In this document: positions 13,036 to 42,699 of the stretch, piece after piece | How the letters are laid out: each line of letters opens with the position of its first letter | How positions within the stretch are numbered: the first letter of the stretch is position 1 | Origin: an uncultured bacterium | Lineage (GTDB): Bacteria > Patescibacteriota > Minisyncoccia > UBA6257 > 2-01-FULL-56-20 | Direction: 5' to 3' | Assembly (NCBI GenBank): GCA_963705915.1 | Contig: OY970126.1 | Span: 687,893-751,892, forward strand | DNA length: 64,000 bases | The notes under the pieces: generated by a model | Told to the model about the DNA's origin: nothing | What the model saw: only the letters and a program-made list of their open reading frames with translations | Database searches by the model: none | Position numbers and translations under genes: made by a program

Positions 13036-13380
13036 TTATTTGATGACTTCCACCACCTTTTTGAATACTGCCGGTTCATTTTCGGCCAGATCGGCAAGGA
13101 TTTTGCGGTCGAGCGCAATGCCTTTCTTTTTGAGCGCGGCGATGAACTTGCTGTAGTTCATGCCTTCCTCACGGATTGCAGCATTGATCTTCACATTCCA
13201 AAGTTGGCGATACACGCGCTTCTTTTCTTTTCGTCCGCGGAACGCATGGGTCCAGGCGTGGAGCAAAGCTTCCTTCGCGGCGCGTTCATTCGTTTTGCGG
13301 CGCCAGCGGAAACCTTTCGTATATTTTAATACTTTTTCGCGGCGCTTATGTTGTATGGTTCCACGTTTTACGCGAGGCAT
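13036..13380 (-). CDS. rplT: 50S ribosomal protein L20
   Basis: MPRVKRGT...KRREKVLK...RQLW signature. Confidence 0.95.
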   Translation of the reverse strand: MPRVKRGTIQHKRREKVLKYTKGFRWRRKTNERAAKEALLHAWTHAFRGRKEKKRVYRQLWNVKINAAIREEGMNYSKFIAALKKKGIALDRKILADLAENEPAVFKKVVEVIK

Positions 13381-13395
13381 GGGACGTTATAAAAA

Positions 13396-13575
13396 TTAAT
13401 ACGTTAAAAATTTCTTCATCGGGTAATTCAAGCCGCGCGGTTTGCTCTTGTTGCGATTGTTCTTTGTTGTCTGGCGGGTACGAAAATGATCCGTCCCCAT
13501 CGCGCGGCGGACGATCTTGCCATTTTTCGTAATCCTGATTCGTTTCGTGAGACTTTTCGAGAGGGACATAGACAT
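13396..13575 (-). CDS. rpmI: 50S ribosomal protein L35
   Basis: KRIRITKNGKIVRRAMGTDHFRTRQTTKNNRNKSK matches the L35 pattern K-R-[FI]-[RK]-[VI]-T-x-x-G-K-[VI]-x-R-R; start chosen at internal ATG (MSMSLSK...) inside the longer ORF-track call. Confidence 0.8.
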   Translation of the reverse strand: MSMSLSKSLTKRIRITKNGKIVRRAMGTDHFRTRQTTKNNRNKSKPRGLNYPMKKFLTY

Positions 13576-13655
13576 GAGCGTAGGTAAACTCAATGGGAAT
13601 AAGCTTACTATAAGCCCCAGCGGATTGCAAGCAGTTTTTAAGAAAGTTTTAATGG

Positions 13656-14123
13656 GTGCTTTGGCATGATGGGCGGATGCGCTATGAAAAAGCCAAACAA
13701 AAAGCATGGGAGCACTACGCTCAAATCGAGCAAATTTTCAGCAATATTTTAAACGATTGGGTCGGATTCACACGGCTAGGATTTCACCATATCATTCGGA
13801 AGCGCGGTATTGAGAGACCAAAAAGCGAACAAAAAAGAAGATTCGAATTACTTGGGCTGGTGGGTGATATATTGCAGGATGACCAAGCCGATGTCGTTCA
13901 TCTGCGCCGAAATGTGAATCGCAAGATAAAACTACGCGGCAAAAAGGTTATGGTAATTTCCGAAGCTCACGTCTGGGTTATAAAGAGTATGATTCAAGGT
14001 AGATCTATAACTATGGTCGTACGGCAATTTAAAAAAGGTAAAAAGCATTTCCTTACAATATACGAAAACAAAAAACCCCTTCAGGAGAAAGGATTTTTTG
14101 TTTGTCCGCCGTCAACATTATAA
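13656..14123 (+). CDS. small basic protein, paralog A of a two-member family; tentative DUF4258-like putative nuclease/toxin fold
   Basis: about 45% identical over ~100 aa to ORF 42346..42699 (HHIIRKRGIERPKSEQKRRFELL / VVRQFKKGKKHFLTIY vs HLIRKRGIRRPARERKRRFRLL / VIRQFEGDSKHFLSIY); H-x3-R-x3-RGI ... hydrophobic-TIY pattern recalls DUF4258; ORF-track start is GTG, an internal ATG at 13677 is an alternative. Confidence 0.5.
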   Translation: MLWHDGRMRYEKAKQKAWEHYAQIEQIFSNILNDWVGFTRLGFHHIIRKRGIERPKSEQKRRFELLGLVGDILQDDQADVVHLRRNVNRKIKLRGKKVMVISEAHVWVIKSMIQGRSITMVVRQFKKGKKHFLTIYENKKPLQEKGFFVCPPSTL

Positions 14124-14226
14124 CGTCGACAGGAGCTACCGCCCCGCGGACTTCTTTTAGTGTAAATCCATATCGAGGCGTGTCAAATCTCTTTTAATAT
14201 TTTTTTAATGAAATCTAAGAGGGCGC

Positions 14227-14739
14227 CTATTTCTTGATGGCCGCCACCTGCACCGATGGCCCGTTGCCGAGGAAGCGCGGTTCGGAAAGCTTCTTATATT
14301 CCACGGGAATGAGCGTCAAGAATTCTTTGAGCTTTTCCATGGCCCAGTCCTTGTTCCGCTTCTCGCGGCCGCGGAGCCGCATCGTGATTTCAACAGGATG
14401 GCCCTCGGCAAAAAACTTTTCGAGCTGGCGCATCTTCACCATAAGATCGTTATGCGCGGCGCGCGCGCTGATCTGCACGGTTTTCATGGCGGCGCTCTTT
14501 TGGGCAAGCCGTTCTTTCTTGAGCCGCTTTTCTTCTTCGTAGCGGAACTTATCGTAGCTCATCAGGCGCGCAACGGGCGGTTTTGCATTTGCGGAAATCT
14601 CGATGAGATCGAGGCCTTCTTCCGGTCGCACGAGGGCGAGCGCTTTCTCGCGCGACAAAACGCCGAGATTTTCTCCTTTCTCGTTGATCACGCGCAGTTC
14701 CTGCGCGGTTATTTGGCTGTTAATGCGTGGTTTGGGAAT
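14227..14739 (-). CDS. infC: translation initiation factor IF-3, probable non-AUG (ATT) start
   Basis: ORF-track call starts at GTG, but the in-frame upstream region encodes ...PKPRINSQITAQELRV... matching the conserved IF3 N-terminus (E. coli RINGEIRAQEVRL); no ATG in frame, candidate ATT codons at 14737-14739 and 14722-14724. Confidence 0.8.
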   Translation of the reverse strand: MPKPRINSQITAQELRVINEKGENLGVLSREKALALVRPEEGLDLIEISANAKPPVARLMSYDKFRYEEEKRLKKERLAQKSAAMKTVQISARAAHNDLMVKMRQLEKFFAEGHPVEITMRLRGREKRNKDWAMEKLKEFLTLIPVEYKKLSEPRFLGNGPSVQVAAIKK

Positions 14740-15922: not shown

Positions 15923-16232
15923 GGGGACGATCGGTTTTGATGGATTGAAGCGATGGGTTTGCGAGCCGAGCGCGCGTGCGTTACAGCGCATCATTTATAA
16001 CTGCCAACTCTAATCGAGTTACAGCTCCAGCATACGCTTTCGCGTAAGTTGGGATCGGCCAGCCAGGGTCTCTTTGGCTGATACCGGTCTTATATAAGGA
16101 GACTCAAGTTCGCGAGGACGATTCTAGTCGCGGAACAAAAACCAAGAATCATTCGTTAGCTTTCGCTATCTACGCTCGTAGACGGCCCACTCGATTTCCT
16201 TCCAGACGGCAGTTCGATTCTGCCCGTCTCCA
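15923..16232 (+). ncRNA. ssrA: tmRNA (transfer-messenger RNA)
   Basis: 5' GGGGACG pairs with 3' CGTCTCC-A giving a G3:U70 wobble (alanine identity); T-arm GGCAG-TTCGATT-CTGCC; internal TGCGAGCCGAG...TATAACT|GCC region parallels the B. subtilis tmRNA resume region; tag ORF from GCC 16003 to TAA 16047 encodes ANSNRVTAPAYAFA. Confidence 0.8.
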
Positions 16233-16589
16233 CTTTATAGAAGGTCTCTTCGTCGGTCAACTTTTCATGCTTGCCGTTCGGATATTCCATGCCACTCCAC
16301 TTGATCCAACCGATGGAGGGTAGAGCTGAAAGACATGGATTTTCCCGTGCTTCCGCTAAAACCCGTTTTCCAGATACGAAGGAGAATCGGTGAAAGCTTT
16401 GTTGACGAAAGTGAGTTCTACTGGGCTCTTTCTTCGCCGACGCGGCGCGACCATTTTGAGCGTTGCCTCAAAGAATTTCGCGGGAGAAAGTAGTCCGTTT
16501 TCGGCGGCCAGCCACAACTGGTCGCCGTTTTTGTCTTGTCCCAGCGTCAAGCATTTCTGCCTGAGAGAGGGAATTGTTAAGATACAGAG

Positions 16590-39899: not shown

Positions 39900-41944
39900 C
39901 TATATCTCAATAATCACCGGCAATATCATCGGACGCCGCTTCGTCTTCGTGTACAAATATTGCCCGACCTGGTCGCGGATCAGGGTCTTCAGATAATCAG
40001 GTTCAACTTCGCGGTAGTTCGGCATCCGAGTGCATGAGTCCGCGGATGCGCTTGCGGATTTCATCGAGGATCTCCTGATTTTCTTTGAGGTAGATAAAGC
40101 CGCGCGAGATGATGTCGGGATTTTTGAGGACGCGGCCTTTGTCGCGGTCCATCGTGAGGATGATGACGATCATGCCTTCGGCGGCGAGCGCGCGGCGGTC
40201 GCGCAAGACGACTTCTTCAACGTCGCCAACGCCGAGGCCGTCTACCATCACGTAGAAGGCGGGGACTTCCTCGCTCGTGACCAAAAATTTTCCCGGCGTG
40301 AGTTCGGCGACCTGGCCGTTGTCCATGAGGATGACGTTTTCTTTCGGGATGCCGACTTCCTGGGCGGAATGGCCGTTCGCGGCGCGCATGAAGTAGTAGC
40401 CGTGCACCGGCACCAAGAATTTCGGCTTGATGAGTTTCATGACGAGCTTCAAGTCGTCTTTCGGCGCATGGCCGGATGAGTGGATGTCGACGAGCGCCGA
40501 GTGATACACCGATCGCGCCTTGGCGCGCGAGATTATCTTTCACGCTTTGCACGCTGCGTTCGTTGCCCGGAATGATGGATGACGACAAGACGAACGTGTC
40601 GCCGGGCTTGATCTTGATGTGCCGGTGTTCGCCGTTGATCATCTTCATGAGGCCGGCGTTCGATTCGCCTTGCGCGCCCGTCGAGAGGATCATGATTTTC
40701 TCATCTTTATACTTCGCCACTTCCTCAACGGAAATGATCGTGCCTTCTTTCGCTTTCACAAAGCCAAGCTTTGCGCGATCTGGATGTTCGTTTTCATCGA
40801 ATAGCCGTTGAGCGCCACTTTGCGCCCGAGTTTTTCGGCGATCTTGATGATCTCCGCGATGCGCGTGAGGAGCGATGCGAATGTTGCGACGATGATGCGG
40901 CCTTCTGCTTTCGCTGAAAATTTCTTCAAGATTGCGCTCCACGGTTTTTTCGGAAACGGAGTGGCCGGGTTTTTCGGCGTTCGTGCTGTCTACCATAAAG
41001 CTGTGAATGCCCATCTTGCCGATACTTTCGAATTCTTCGAGGCCTTGCGGTTCGCCCTCGTCGTTGTAGTCAACGCGAAAGTCGGCGAAGTGCACGATGT
41101 TGCCTGCAGGCGTTTTCATCAAAACGCCCGTCGTTTCGGGAATCGTGTGCGGCACGCCGAAGAAGACGCGCGCCAAAGTTCGGCGAAATTTTCACTTCGG
41201 TCGCCATTCTTTACCGTGATCACATTCATCTTCGGCGAGTTCGGAAAATCTTCCTGCCGTTTTTCGATGATCGCTTTCGTGATCGATGTCGCGTAGATCG
41301 GGGGATTGCCGAGGCGTGCGAGCAAGTGCGGCAACGCGCCGATATGGTCGTAGTGGCCGTGCGTCAAAATGATCGCCGGCGATATTTTCTTTTTTCTTTT
41401 CGAGATATTGGATGTTCGGGATGATGTAGTCGATGCCCGGCGTTTCGTCTTCGGGGAACTGCAACCCGACGTCGATGATGACGATTTCATTCTTATATTC
41501 GAGGAACATGCAGTTGCGGCCGACTTCTTCGAGGCCGCCGAGCGGCACAAAACGGACCGCGTCCGGATTCGGTTTGATTGCTGCGGCGCCTCCGGCGCTT
41601 TCCTGCGCGACAAGCGATTTCGACGGGCCGAATTTCCCCGCGCTCGAAGCTTTCACGGCGCCGGGGTGTCCGCCCGGCATACGATCGCGTCGATCCCGGC
41701 GTGGGCGTTTTGGTCCGCCCGGTCCGCCTGGACCGCGTTCGCGCGAAGGACGTTCACTTGGCGCGTCGCCAGGCGCCGTCTTGCGCGAAGGTTCATCGGC
41801 GGGCCTTTTCGGCTTTTGTTCCGCAGGCGCTCCGGGCTTTGGCCGCGGCCGGATTGTGGGCGGCTTTATCCGCGGCCGCTCCAAAGGAGCCGTCGCGTTG
41901 TGTGGTGCTGCGTTTTGCAGCTCATTGCTATCAGTTTTTTTCAT
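39900..41944 (-). pseudogene. rnj: ribonuclease J, reading frame broken by at least six +/-1 frameshifts; N-terminal Pro/Arg-rich low-complexity extension
   Basis: RNase J-homologous segments (GIDYIIPNIQYL / IILTHGHYDHIG / KFRRTLARVFFGVPHTIPETTG...NIVHFADF / KAEGRIIVATFAS / ILSTGAQGE...SSSIIPGNE / DIHSSGH...KPKF / LYTKTKRRPMILPVIIEI) alternate between minus-strand frames near 41375-41400, 41175-41185, 40910-40927, 40757-40775, 40505-40515 and 40010-40035; at least two shifts sit in homopolymer runs (gaaaa/ttt at about 41175-41185; aaaaagaaaa run at about 41375-41400). Confidence 0.7.
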
Positions 41945-41983
41945 AGTCGCTATGTAATTGTTTTTATTAATTTTTAATCTTTG

Positions 41984-42067
41984 TGCCGAGGAGGAGATTC
42001 GAACTCCTATGACCTTGCGGTCGCTGGTACCTGAAACCAGTGCGTCTGCCAGTTCCGCCACCTCGGC
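41984..42067 (-). tRNA. tRNA-Leu (anticodon CAG), type II with long variable arm
   Basis: manual cloverleaf on the reverse complement: acceptor GCCGAGG/CCTCGGC, anticodon stem CTGGT/ACCAG with loop TTCAGGT, variable arm GACC-GCAA-GGTC, T-arm AGGAG-TTCGAAT-CTCCT, discriminator A. Confidence 0.8.
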
Positions 42068-42258
42068 AGGAAAACGAACATCAAAACTAAGCCTTGTGGC
42101 TCAGTTCTTTTCTCGAGGAAACAGGTTTCATTTCGATTGCGGGAAGAAGGAGGGTTTGTCTTGGAAATTAGAGTATAGCATGGCGTTCATTAAAAAGTCA
42201 AGACATTAAAAAATTATTGAGATAGAGTTGACTTTATTACGCATGGCAATAGACTGTA

Positions 42259-42313
42259 GATATGCCCGCGGGATGACTAATCCCCTTCGGCATATCGCTG
42301 AAGCGGGCATATC
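42259..42313. repeat. 11-bp perfect inverted repeat gatatgcccgc ... gcgggcatatc flanking a 33-nt spacer
   Basis: read directly; lies between tRNA-Leu and DUF4258-like paralog B, abutting the terminator. Confidence 0.5.
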
Positions 42314-42340
42314 AAAAAACACCCGGAAAGGTGTTTTTTG
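42314..42340. terminator. bidirectional intrinsic terminator aaaaaacacc-cggaaa-ggtgtttttt
   Basis: A-run / stem / T-run; 6 nt from the stop of gene 42346..42699. Confidence 0.65.
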
Positions 42341-42345
42341 ATATG

Positions 42346-42699
42346 TTAATAGATGCTAAGAAAATGCTTACTGTCACCCTCAAACTGCCTGATAACCACA
42401 GTCACTTTTTGGCTGCGGATAGTCTTCTTGAAAGCCCAAAATTCTCCTCTCGATATTTTTATCTTTCTTGACTTGGACCGACCGACGAAACGAGCAATTC
42501 CTTCTGCTCTTCTGTAAGAAAATATTGCATTCGGATCGGTGACTATATCTTTCGCATAACGAAGAAGTCGAAATCTTCTTTTTCGCTCACGTGCTGGCCG
42601 TCGAATGCCTCGTTTACGGATAAGATGTCGTAGGCCGATGCTGTTAAAGATGATGTAGTCATGTAGTTTTGGACACCAAATGCGGCTTGGAAATTTCAT
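42346..42699 (-). CDS. small basic protein, paralog B of the two-member family; tentative DUF4258-like
   Basis: homologous to ORF 13656..14123; 117 aa, pI strongly basic; a 7-bp-arm palindrome taatgacatgaccgtcatta lies just upstream (about 42706-42725). Confidence 0.5.
   Translation of the reverse strand: MKFPSRIWCPKLHDYIIFNSIGLRHLIRKRGIRRPARERKRRFRLLRYAKDIVTDPNAIFSYRRAEGIARFVGRSKSRKIKISRGEFWAFKKTIRSQKVTVVIRQFEGDSKHFLSIY

What the first reader, a model, noticed from the sequence alone, without database searches (positions are those of the whole stretch)
13576..14226. Foreign small basic protein gene inserted antisense between infC and rpmI
infC-rpmI-rplT is one of the most conserved, tightly packed operons in bacteria. 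Here infC (stop 14227) and rpmI (start 13575) are about 650 bp apart. The gap holds an opposite-strand ORF (13656..14123) with a plausible sigma70-like promoter (TTGCAA-17-TTTAAT at about 13625-13653). It is basic, and its H-x3-R-x3-RGI-ER … VVRQF…HFLTIY pattern is reminiscent of DUF4258, a family suspected to act as nuclease toxins. It has a diverged paralog 28 kb away. The insertion site, own promoter and paralogy suggest a selfish or addiction-type element, or an antisense regulator of ribosomal-protein expression, not a housekeeping gene.
Basis: partly seen in the sequence, partly recalled or inferred. Interest (0 to 1): 0.65.

Follow-up and report, generated by a model that had tools for sequence, protein, structure and literature searches.

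The report
Foreign RNase-like gene with partner small RNA
The 650-bp gap between infC and rpmI holds a foreign two-gene cassette, a small basic RNase-like protein plus a previously unnoticed, convergently transcribed structured small RNA, that recurs in many ultra-small (CPR/Patescibacteria) bacteria and looks like an undescribed toxin/RNA-antidote type module.

Summary
infC (stop 14227) and rpmI (start 13575) are 651 bp apart. The gap holds a real opposite-strand gene (13677-14123, pI 10.4) with a 37%-identical paralog at 42346-42699.

The closest relatives have infC and rpmI 41-100 bp apart, so this is an insertion. Other relatives carry unrelated cargo at the same site, so the site is a hot spot.

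The protein is not DUF4258 (0 of 63 family members hit). It belongs to a large stand-alone family, 1141 clusters at 50% identity, all named sources CPR/Patescibacteria. The family is related to Pfam LPD3 and, weakly, to the PBECR2 phage RNase family. An invariant His in a helix and a Ser/Thr in the last strand fit a BECR-type RNase site.

Every family ORF examined (28 of 28) is followed by a convergent ~90-nt small RNA. This RNA has its own sigma70-like promoter, a perfect three-way junction (21 of 30 pairs with compensatory changes) and a bidirectional terminator shared with the ORF. The ORF stop codon usually lies inside that terminator. No Rfam family matches.

The most likely function is an RNA-antidote toxin-antitoxin-like selfish or defence cassette. 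That function is inferred, not shown.

The parts
13036..13380 (-). rplT (L20), host gene
   Evidence: Pfam Ribosomal_L20, E 1.6e-36.
13396..13575 (-). rpmI (L35), host gene
   Evidence: Pfam Ribosomal_L35p, E 4.6e-7.
13602..13630 (-). Ancestral rpmI promoter (TTGCAA-17-TAAGCT), retained at the edge of the insertion
   Evidence: The same TTGCA/TTGCC...TATAGTAAGCTTA...CATTGAG sequence follows the infC stop directly in relatives without an insertion (L031, L043, L027). Promoter function is inferred.
13625..13653 (+). Candidate promoter of the ORF (TTGCAA-17-TTTAAT). The -35 hexamer is the palindromic -35 of the rpmI promoter.
   Evidence: Seen in the sequence. TTTAAT lies at -29 from the ATG in winA, winB, L004, L007 and L017. 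The consensus scan did not call it.
13636..13654 (+). Left copy of a 19-nt AT-rich direct repeat flanking the cassette (TTTTAAGAAAGTTTTAATG)
   Evidence: the repeat finder family D2, 79% identity, spacing 556. Repeats occur at equivalent positions in 6 sub-clade loci. Its meaning is unresolved.
13677..14123 (+). LPD3-like stand-alone basic protein, 148 aa (alternative GTG start at 13656); putative BECR-type RNase or RNA-binding protein
   Evidence: Homologs found. LPD3 hit in 43/63 family members and PBECR2 in 7/63. AlphaFold pLDDT 91.4. Top BFVD structural match is LPD3, probability 0.97. Invariant H38, K42, R47, R55; S/T127 conserved in >=90%.
14066..14103 (.). Bidirectional intrinsic terminator shared by the ORF mRNA and the small RNA (A-tract, hairpin, T-tract)
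   Evidence: Inverted repeat I1, 17-nt arms, 88% complementary. Helices 4-5 of the RNA model show covariation. The A-tract and T-tract are conserved.
14068..14153 (-). Convergent small RNA, copy A: three-way junction at 14104-14151, followed by the terminator
   Evidence: Covariance model R1 scores 72.2 bits, E 8e-15. Folding energy is -44.7 kcal/mol (z -7.4) on this strand against -24.6 (z -2.5) on the other strand. Covariation is shown.
14159..14186 (-). Promoter of small RNA A (TTGACA-16-TACACT)
   Evidence: Consensus scan gives 10/12 matches. An equivalent promoter sits at the same position in all 28 copies.
14192..14210 (+). Right copy of the flanking AT-rich direct repeat. On the minus strand it lies in the UP-element position of the small RNA promoter.
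14227..14691 (-). infC (IF3), host gene. The true start is probably the ATT at 14724.
   Evidence: Pfam IF3_N E 9.8e-20 and IF3_C E 7.3e-12. The ATT start comes from reading the upstream frame and is an inference.
42346..42699 (-). Paralogous LPD3-like ORF, copy B (117 aa, lacks the N-terminal helix)
   Evidence: tblastn 37% identity, E 1.4e-17. Alignment shown.
42257..42342 (+). Convergent small RNA, copy B
   Evidence: Covariance model R1 scores 65.3 bits, E 3.5e-13. Folding energy -43.8 kcal/mol, z -7.7.
42228..42255 (+). Promoter of small RNA B (TTGACT-16-TAGACT)
41983..42067 (-). tRNA-Leu(CAG), host gene neighbouring copy B
   Evidence: ARAGORN and Rfam.

Best explanation
Positions ~13631-14226 are a ~600-bp foreign cassette. 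It was inserted between the infC stop codon and the ancestral rpmI promoter. It has two convergent genes.

1. A stand-alone, very basic LPD3-like protein. Its conserved His (in a helix) and Ser/Thr (in the last beta-strand) fit the active-site pattern of BECR-fold, metal-independent RNases.
2. A ~85-90-nt small RNA transcribed from its own sigma70-type promoter on the opposite strand. It folds into a junction-tight three-way junction. It ends in a bidirectional terminator shared with the protein gene, so the two transcripts are perfectly complementary over their 3' ends. In most family members this complementary stretch includes the last ~6 codons and the stop codon of the ORF.

I propose it is a toxin-antitoxin-like selfish or defence module in which the RNA is the antidote. 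The RNA would hold the RNase-like protein in check in one or both of two ways:
- by 3'-end antisense pairing, giving duplex cleavage or loss of the stop codon, and so less protein or tagged protein;
- by direct binding of the conserved junction to the protein.

Shown: the cassette, its two genes, the RNA structure and strand, the strict co-occurrence, the patchy multi-copy distribution, and the insertion. Inferred: RNase activity, toxicity, and the antidote role of the RNA.
For: **Insertion**
- The closest relatives have infC-rpmI gaps of 41-100 bp. None of 73 related infC loci carries the family ORF or the small RNA.
- The ancestral promoter is retained.
- GC dips over both copies.

**Protein**
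- The family has 1141 clusters, and the top 150 are all 80-215 aa.
- LPD3 hits in 43/63 members and PBECR2 in 7/63.
- Confident model, pLDDT 91.4. Best structural match is LPD3 of phage polyvalent proteins.
- Invariant H38 lies in helix 33-40, and S/T127 lies in the last strand. This matches the BECR configuration described in PMC5512222.

**RNA**
- The small RNA is present next to every family ORF, 28 hits at 42-99 bits.
- RNAalifold independently predicts the same three-way junction.
- 96.5% of cells are paired, and 21/30 pairs show compensatory change. 0/500 shuffles reach this. Slid controls give 40-54%.
- 66 G·U cells on this strand against about 6 on the other. Pairing is 97% against 87%.
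- A promoter is present in all 28 copies.
- The ORF end overlaps the small RNA 3' end in 21/24 loci, median 20 nt.

**Selfish or TA-like behaviour**
- Several copies per genome: two in this window, two within 2.3 kb in L020, two on one 261-kb contig.
- Varied intergenic contexts.
- One copy lies next to T4SS genes. One remnant lies between a PemK/MazF toxin gene and a MazE gene.
- Decayed ORFs keep an intact RNA (L024, L015, L016b). No intact ORF lacks the RNA.
Against: - No experiment or transcript data were available.
- The window protein itself gets no Pfam hit.
- PBECR2 hits are all below the gathering score (best 22.8 bits against 27.1).
- No PADLOC, NCBIfam or PHROG match.
- Classical type I toxins are small hydrophobic peptides and type III antitoxins are tandem repeats. 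Neither fits.
- In 3 of 24 loci and in copy B the ORF stops 3-13 nt before the small RNA 3' end, so overlap of the coding region is not universal.
- The two window copies are old paralogs (37% identity), so recent mobility is not shown.
Confidence: 0.5

Rival explanations
1. Dedicated ribonucleoprotein, not a toxin-antidote pair. The LPD3-like protein binds or processes the three-way-junction RNA, and the complex is the working unit, for example a sensor or effector in defence or an RNA chaperone pair like FinO/FinP.
For: - Strict 28/28 co-occurrence.
- Sequence conservation is concentrated at the junction-proximal stems, while the loops vary. That pattern suits a protein-binding site.
- The protein is very basic, family median pI 10.4.
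Against: - It does not explain why the two genes are convergent with a shared terminator and with the ORF stop codon inside it.
- It does not explain why decayed ORFs keep an intact RNA.
Confidence: 0.25
2. DNA-level mobile cassette. The conserved stem structure acts as a DNA recombination site (as in integron attC or IS200/IS605 hairpins), the AT-rich direct repeats are cassette ends, and the protein is a nuclease that moves the cassette.
For: - The insertion is precise, between the infC stop and the rpmI promoter.
- 19-nt direct repeats flank the cassette in six sub-clade loci.
- The infC-rpmI site is an insertion hot spot in relatives.
Against: - G·U asymmetry of 66 to about 6, and 97% against 87% pairing, show selection on one RNA strand.
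- The promoter and terminator are conserved in all 28 copies.
- The flanking repeat is absent in the larger sub-family.
- TTTTAATG also recurs elsewhere in AT-rich spacers.
- No recombinase or HUH-like domain was found.
Confidence: 0.07
3. One reading: the ORF or its transcript is an antisense regulator of infC, rpmI and rplT expression.
For: - The ORF promoter and the rpmI promoter may share one palindromic -35 hexamer.
- The cassette's bidirectional terminator should stop read-through from infC into rpmI. This is an inference.
Against: - Of 25 other family loci, none is next to infC, rpmI or rplT.
- None of the 73 related infC loci contains the cassette.
- rpmI keeps its own ancestral promoter.
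Confidence: 0.03
4. An ordinary conserved housekeeping gene, or a spurious ORF in a long spacer.
For: None beyond its position in a ribosomal-protein neighbourhood.
Against: - It is absent from the same site in relatives.
- It belongs to a large conserved family with a confident fold.
- It is multi-copy and its contexts are variable.
Confidence: 0.02

Closest known systems
Pfam PF18798 LPD3 (large polyvalent protein-associated domain 3) of phage and conjugative-element polyvalent proteins (Iyer et al. 2017, PMC5512222)
   Same: - 43 of 63 family members hit the LPD3 model. The best hit is 34.8 bits, above the 27-bit cut-off.
- The best structural match of the AlphaFold model is an LPD3 region of a phage polyvalent protein, probability 0.97.
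   Different: - Here the domain is a stand-alone 110-190-aa chromosomal protein of CPR bacteria. It is not part of a giant virion or conjugation protein.
- It was not found in IMG/VR, INPHARED phages or PLSDB plasmids.
- It is always paired with a small RNA.
- LPD3 has no known function.
PBECR2 / BECR-fold metal-independent endoRNases (colicin D/E5, RelE, EndoU, barnase; PF18810)
   Same: - Sub-threshold PBECR2 hits fall over the same region as the LPD3 hits, 7/63 members, best E 1e-4.
- The model has helices followed by a four-stranded antiparallel sheet.
- An invariant His in a helix and a Ser/Thr in the last strand match the PBECR active-site description.
   Different: - No hit reaches the gathering score.
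- There is no significant structural match to any solved BECR protein.
- Activity is untested.
Type I toxin-antitoxin systems with convergent 3'-overlapping antisense RNAs (for example B. subtilis txpA/RatA and bsrG/SR4; from my own knowledge)
   Same: - Protein gene and cis-encoded small RNA are convergent.
- Transcripts overlap at their 3' ends.
- Small, multi-copy, patchily distributed chromosomal cassettes.
   Different: - The protein is a 120-160-aa basic soluble RNase-like protein, not a hydrophobic peptide of under 60 aa.
- The overlap is short, about the length of the terminator.
- The RNA carries a conserved three-way junction that is not complementary to the mRNA.
Type III toxin-antitoxin systems (ToxIN, CptIN, TenpIN; from my own knowledge)
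   Same: An endoRNase-type toxin neutralised by a structured RNA that binds it is a plausible mode of action for the junction.
   Different: - Type III antitoxins are tandem 34-36-nt repeats upstream of the toxin on the same strand.
- Here there are no tandem repeats, a single structured unit, and convergent orientation.
DUF4258
   Same: Small basic protein with His/Arg-rich motifs. DUF4258 is, to my knowledge, grouped with RelE/ParE-type toxins, so it may share a distant superfold.
   Different: No Pfam hit to DUF4258 in the window protein or in any of 63 family members.

Membership tests
Pfam LPD3 (PF18798) | HMM score at or above the gathering cut-off (27 bits), tested on the window proteins | tested here: not met
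   Neither window copy gives any Pfam hit at E<=1.
Pfam LPD3 (PF18798) | Homologous family members match the model, and the fold matches LPD3 regions | tested here: met
   43/63 members hit at E<=0.01. P0006 scores 34.8 bits, above the 27-bit cut-off. The top BFVD match is LPD3, probability 0.97, TM(query) 0.44.
BECR-fold RNases / PBECR2 (PF18810) | HMM score at or above the gathering cut-off (27.1 bits) | tested here: not met
   The best hit is 22.8 bits, E 1.1e-4. 7/63 members hit at E<=0.01.
BECR-fold RNases / PBECR2 (PF18810) | His in the N-terminal helix plus Ser/Thr in strand 4 (PMC5512222) | tested here: met
   H38 is invariant and lies in helix 33-40. S/T127 is conserved in >=90% of members and lies in the last strand, 123-130.
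BECR-fold RNases / PBECR2 (PF18810) | Structural similarity to solved BECR proteins | tested here: inconclusive
BECR-fold RNases / PBECR2 (PF18810) | Metal-independent endoribonuclease activity | not testable with these tools
   Needs biochemistry.
DUF4258 (PF14076) | HMM match | tested here: not met
   0/63 members at E<=0.01, and no hit for the window protein at E<=1.
Type I toxin-antitoxin | Cis-encoded antisense RNA overlapping the toxin transcript | tested here: met
   The small RNA is convergent. The ORF end lies inside the small RNA 3' region in 21/24 loci, median 20 nt. The terminator is shared. Transcription itself is inferred from the promoters.
Type I toxin-antitoxin | Toxin is a small hydrophobic membrane peptide | tested here: not met
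   The proteins are 117-148 aa with pI 10.4-11.7. The model is a soluble alpha/beta fold.
Type III toxin-antitoxin | Antitoxin is a tandem array of short RNA repeats upstream of the toxin on the same strand | tested here: not met
   TRF finds no tandem repeats in 13400-14400. The RNA is a single unit, downstream and convergent.
Any toxin-antitoxin system | Toxicity of one partner and neutralisation by the other | not testable with these tools
   Needs expression experiments.
Rfam RNA families | Covariance-model match at the gathering score | tested here: not met
   The whole window at gathering score gives only tmRNA and 2 tRNAs. E-value scans of copy A and of L008 give only terminator-driven hits far below cut-off.

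The most novel reading that the evidence does not exclude
A previously undescribed class of two-component systems, specific to or strongly enriched in CPR/Patescibacteria. A stand-alone LPD3/BECR-type RNase is controlled by a dedicated three-way-junction small RNA encoded tail-to-tail with it. This would be an RNA-antidote toxin-antitoxin or defence system that combines type I features (3' antisense) and type III features (RNA-protein). It would give the first functional handle on the LPD3 domain of phage polyvalent proteins. It would also add a new, abundant structured RNA family in bacteria where almost no small RNAs are known.
Probability: 0.35. Interest if true: 0.8.

Novelty: new variant of a known kind. 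Interest (0 to 1): 0.62.

Why it matters
- CPR/Patescibacteria have tiny genomes (this contig is 827 kb), and very few regulatory RNAs or addiction or defence modules have been characterised in them.
- This cassette is compact, recurs in over a thousand protein clusters and is often multi-copy. Its RNA partner has textbook covariation and is absent from Rfam.
- If the protein is an RNase held in check by this RNA, the pair defines a new architecture for RNA-antidote systems. It would also assign a first function to LPD3, a domain that phages and conjugative elements inject as part of polyvalent proteins.
- The finding shows that the 'untouchable' infC-rpmI-rplT cluster is an insertion hot spot in one CPR lineage. 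This is probably tolerated because rpmI has its own promoter there.

Tried and rejected
- **DUF4258 membership.** Rejected: no hit in 63 members.
- **Known RNA family for the small RNA.** Rejected: Rfam gathering and E-value scans find nothing. A hammerhead or other ribozyme is also unlikely, because the junction has no unpaired conserved core.
- **Defence, phage and NCBI family libraries.** No match.
- **Phage or plasmid origin.** The family is not found in IMG/VR by protein patterns or by an RNA pattern. It is not found in INPHARED phages or PLSDB plasmids.
- **A protein antitoxin partner.** The 72-aa ORF upstream of one homolog (L002) is unique to that locus and has no Pfam hit.
- **Extra complementarity between the three-way junction and the ORF 5' region.** Inspected by eye for both window copies and none found. 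Not tested formally.
- **TTTTAATG or the 19-nt direct repeats as mobile-element ends.** They are suggestive in one sub-clade. They are absent in the larger sub-family, and the motif recurs in other AT-rich spacers. Left unresolved.
- **Literature.** Searches for LPD3, BECR with RNA antitoxin, and CPR small RNAs found no description of this pair.

Full report
**1.

The window carries rplT (13036-13380, minus strand), rpmI (13396-13575, minus) and infC (14227-14691, minus), all confirmed by Pfam. The spacer 13576-14226 is 651 bp.

It contains a plus-strand ORF. The longest form starts at GTG 13656. The form deposited in public data starts at ATG 13677, and both end at 14123. The protein is strongly basic, with pI 10.4.

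A diverged paralog lies at 42346-42699 on the minus strand (37% identity, tblastn E 1.4e-17), next to tRNA-Leu(CAG). Both copies sit in GC troughs of about 0.40, against 0.51 for the window.

The consensus scan does not call them, because TTTAAT lacks the A it requires at position 2.

**2. It is an insertion, and the site is a hot spot**

I collected 73 metagenomic loci encoding IF3 proteins 34-89% identical to this one.
- In the closest relatives (L027, L028, L029, L031, L043, L046, L050 and others; IF3 77-89% identical), rpmI follows infC after 41-100 bp.
- In a second set of relatives the spacer is 400-1900 bp and holds unrelated ORFs. These include a recurrent ~160-aa ORF, a 268-aa ORF and a 150-aa ORF.
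- None of the 73 loci contains the present protein family (tblastn) or its RNA.

In the uninterrupted relatives the infC stop is followed at once by a conserved promoter-like sequence (TTGCA/TTGCC ... TATAGTAAGCTTA ... CATTGAG). The same sequence is kept in the window at 13630-13590 on the minus strand. The foreign segment is therefore about 13631-14226. rpmI-rplT keep their own promoter, which probably explains why insertions are tolerated here.

Among 25 loci that encode family members elsewhere, none is adjacent to infC, rpmI or rplT.

**3. The protein**

Database searches:
- The window protein has no Pfam, NCBIfam, PADLOC or PHROG hit.
- A profile of the first homologs, searched against 1.84 billion cluster representatives, finds 1141 clusters at E<=1e-3 and 568 at E<=1e-10. 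The best 150 are all 80-215 aa.
- Wherever a source names the organism it is Patescibacteria/CPR, and the protein is called 'hypothetical'.

Family assignment:
- Of 63 aligned members, 43 hit Pfam LPD3 (best 34.8 bits, above the cut-off).
- Seven hit PBECR2 below the cut-off, over the same region.
- None hits DUF4258.

Structure:
- AlphaFold2 on the 63-sequence alignment gives a confident model (pLDDT 91.4). It has an N-terminal helix, a small hairpin, two helices and a four-stranded antiparallel sheet.
- Foldseek finds no solved structure.
- Against viral models the top match is an LPD3 region of a phage polyvalent protein, probability 0.97.

Iyer et al. 2017 list LPD3 among domains of unknown function. 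[quoted passage not shown] In this family H38 is invariant and lies in a helix. S/T127 is conserved in at least 90% of members and lies in the last strand. A cluster of invariant basic residues (K42, R47, R55, and the near-invariant K53, R54, R116 and K123) surrounds them.

'BECR-type RNase or RNA-binding protein' is therefore a reasoned inference, not a demonstrated membership.

**4. The second gene: a convergent structured small RNA**

Aligning the two window copies showed that similarity continues about 130 bp past the ORF. The same downstream element is present in every locus encoding a family member.

Read on the strand opposite to the ORF, it consists of:
- a sigma70-type promoter (copy A: TTGACA-16-TACACT, 14186-14159);
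- a 4-7-nt leader;
- a three-way junction with no unpaired junction nucleotides (P1 9 bp, P2 5 bp with a tetraloop, P3 7-8 bp);
- an A-rich linker;
- a hairpin followed by a U-tract.

Evidence for the structure:
- On a MAFFT alignment of 22 copies, RNAalifold predicts exactly this structure.
- For the three-way junction, 95.9% of cells pair and 15 of 21 pairs show compensatory changes. 0 of 500 shuffles reach this, and slid controls pair at 34-50%.
- A covariance model (R1) finds only the two expected sites in the window, at 72 and 65 bits.
- In 25 sources R1 gives 28 hits at 42-99 bits, one next to each family ORF. This includes a second full cassette in L020 and a remnant in L016.
- On that 28-sequence alignment 96.5% of cells pair and 21 of 30 pairs show compensatory change.

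Evidence for the strand:
- The junction pairs at 97% on this strand against 87% on the ORF-sense strand.
- There are 66 G·U cells on this strand against about 6 on the other.
- Copy A folds at -44.7 kcal/mol (z -7.4) on the minus strand, against -24.6 (z -2.5) on the plus strand.
- All 28 copies have a -35/-10 pair ending right at the start of the model.

No Rfam family matches.

**5. How the two genes are joined**

The hairpin is flanked by an A-tract and a T-tract, so it can terminate both transcripts. In 21 of 24 loci the ORF reads into this terminator and stops inside it. The median overlap with the small RNA 3' end is 20 nt. The A-tract encodes the Lys-Lys tail of the protein. The two RNAs are therefore perfectly complementary over their 3' ends, including the stop codon.

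In window copy A, and in its closest homolog L007, that stop has been lost and the ORF runs on into the small RNA gene (overlaps of 56 and 90 nt). The extra tail of copy A is modelled with low confidence (pLDDT below 50 for residues 143-148).

Copy B stops 3 nt before the small RNA end and lacks the N-terminal helix.

**6. Behaviour of the cassette**

- It is often multi-copy: two in this 64-kb window, two within 2.3 kb in L020, and two on one 261-kb contig.
- It lies in unrelated intergenic contexts among housekeeping genes.
- One copy is next to T4SS-type genes. One remnant lies between a PemK/MazF toxin gene and a MazE gene.
- Where the ORF is damaged, the small RNA is intact: L024 (truncated), L015 (in-frame stop) and the L016 remnant. 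No intact ORF without the small RNA was seen.
- The family was not found in IMG/VR, INPHARED phages or PLSDB plasmids.

**7. Interpretation**

The best-supported reading is a selfish or defence cassette of the toxin-antitoxin kind. It pairs an RNase-like protein with an RNA antidote.

Two features argue for control of the protein by the RNA: the tail-to-tail overlap that embeds the stop codon, and the asymmetric decay in which the RNA outlives the ORF. The conserved junction is not complementary to the mRNA, which suggests that the RNA also binds the protein.

I put about 0.5 on this reading. I put 0.25 on a non-toxic dedicated RNP. I put below 0.1 each on a DNA-level recombination site, on regulation of the ribosomal operon, and on a housekeeping gene.

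It resembles type I systems with 3' overlap and type III systems with RNase toxins, but fails a defining feature of each: the toxin is not a peptide, and the RNA has no tandem repeats.

**8. Novelty**

The protein is a new stand-alone branch of a known domain of unknown function. The RNA is a new family. I did not find the pairing in Rfam, Pfam, PADLOC or the searchable literature. I rate it a new variant of a known kind.

**9. Limits**

- No expression or activity data were available.
- The mechanism of mobility is unknown.
- 19-nt AT-rich direct repeats flank the cassette in one sub-clade, but they may simply be promoter or UP-element sequences.

Noticed in passing
L033-L038, L041, L042, L048, L049, L052, L069, L079, L095 (infC-rpmI spacers): In relatives of this organism the infC-rpmI spacer is 400-1900 bp and holds unrelated ORFs. 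Among them are a recurrent ~160-aa ORF (MKRNVEKARRFLKALVSLSINTDKPPQD...), a 268-aa ORF and a 150-aa ORF. The spacer is an insertion hot spot in this lineage.
   Followed up: partly
window 14692-14724 (-): Reading the infC frame upstream of the GTG gives INSQITAQELRV-INEKGENLGV. That matches the usual IF3 N-terminus, so infC probably starts at an ATT codon at 14724, the unusual start codon typical of infC.
   Followed up: no
window 13636-13654 and 14192-14210; also 2866, 12408, 28147, 36731, 42188, 42204, 47861, 57315: TTTTAATG occurs 10 times against 3.2 expected (1 of 100 shuffles reaches 10), mostly in AT-rich spacers. A 19-nt version flanks the cassette as a direct repeat here and at equivalent positions in L004, L005, L007, L017 and copy B. 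It could be a promoter or UP element, or a cassette boundary. Unresolved.
   Followed up: partly
window 14070-14123: Copy A, like its closest homolog L007, has lost the stop codon that normally lies in the terminator loop. It reads on into the small RNA gene, adding a low-confidence C-terminal tail.
   Followed up: partly
L016 10-1291: A remnant cassette lies between a PemK/MazF-like toxin gene and a MazE-like antitoxin gene. The remnant is a 60-aa ORF fragment (493-675) plus a 42-bit small RNA (678-783). The intact cassette in the same locus is flanked by two similar ~30-nt hairpin repeats (AGGTTCAACCT(T)CGGA).
   Followed up: partly
L100 1-2945: One family member lies directly beside conjugation/T4SS-type genes (P-loop_TraG/DUF87, TraC-like, PrgI). 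This recalls the occurrence of LPD3 in conjugative-element polyvalent proteins.
   Followed up: no
L002 4804-5022: A 72-aa ORF (…VVVLPIEEYRRL…) sits 10 bp upstream of homolog P0005. It has no Pfam hit and is not found at other family loci.
   Followed up: yes
window 40003-42061 (-): Several overlapping minus-strand ORFs in different frames seem to encode consecutive parts of one metallo-beta-lactamase/RNase J-like protein. They are preceded by a very GC-rich (0.68) Pro/Arg/Gly-rich stretch at 41500-41900. Possible frameshifts or a pseudogene. Not checked.
   Followed up: no
window 15923-16235 (+): A tmRNA gene (tag ANSNRVTAPAYAFA) lies 1.7 kb from the cassette. It would be relevant if small-RNA-directed cleavage produces non-stop mRNAs.
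   Followed up: no
L005 2080-2260: Downstream of the cassette in L005 and L006 a sequence resembling a SAM-I riboswitch (…TTATCAAGAGTGAGCCGAGGGA…) precedes the next gene. Judged by eye only.
   Followed up: no
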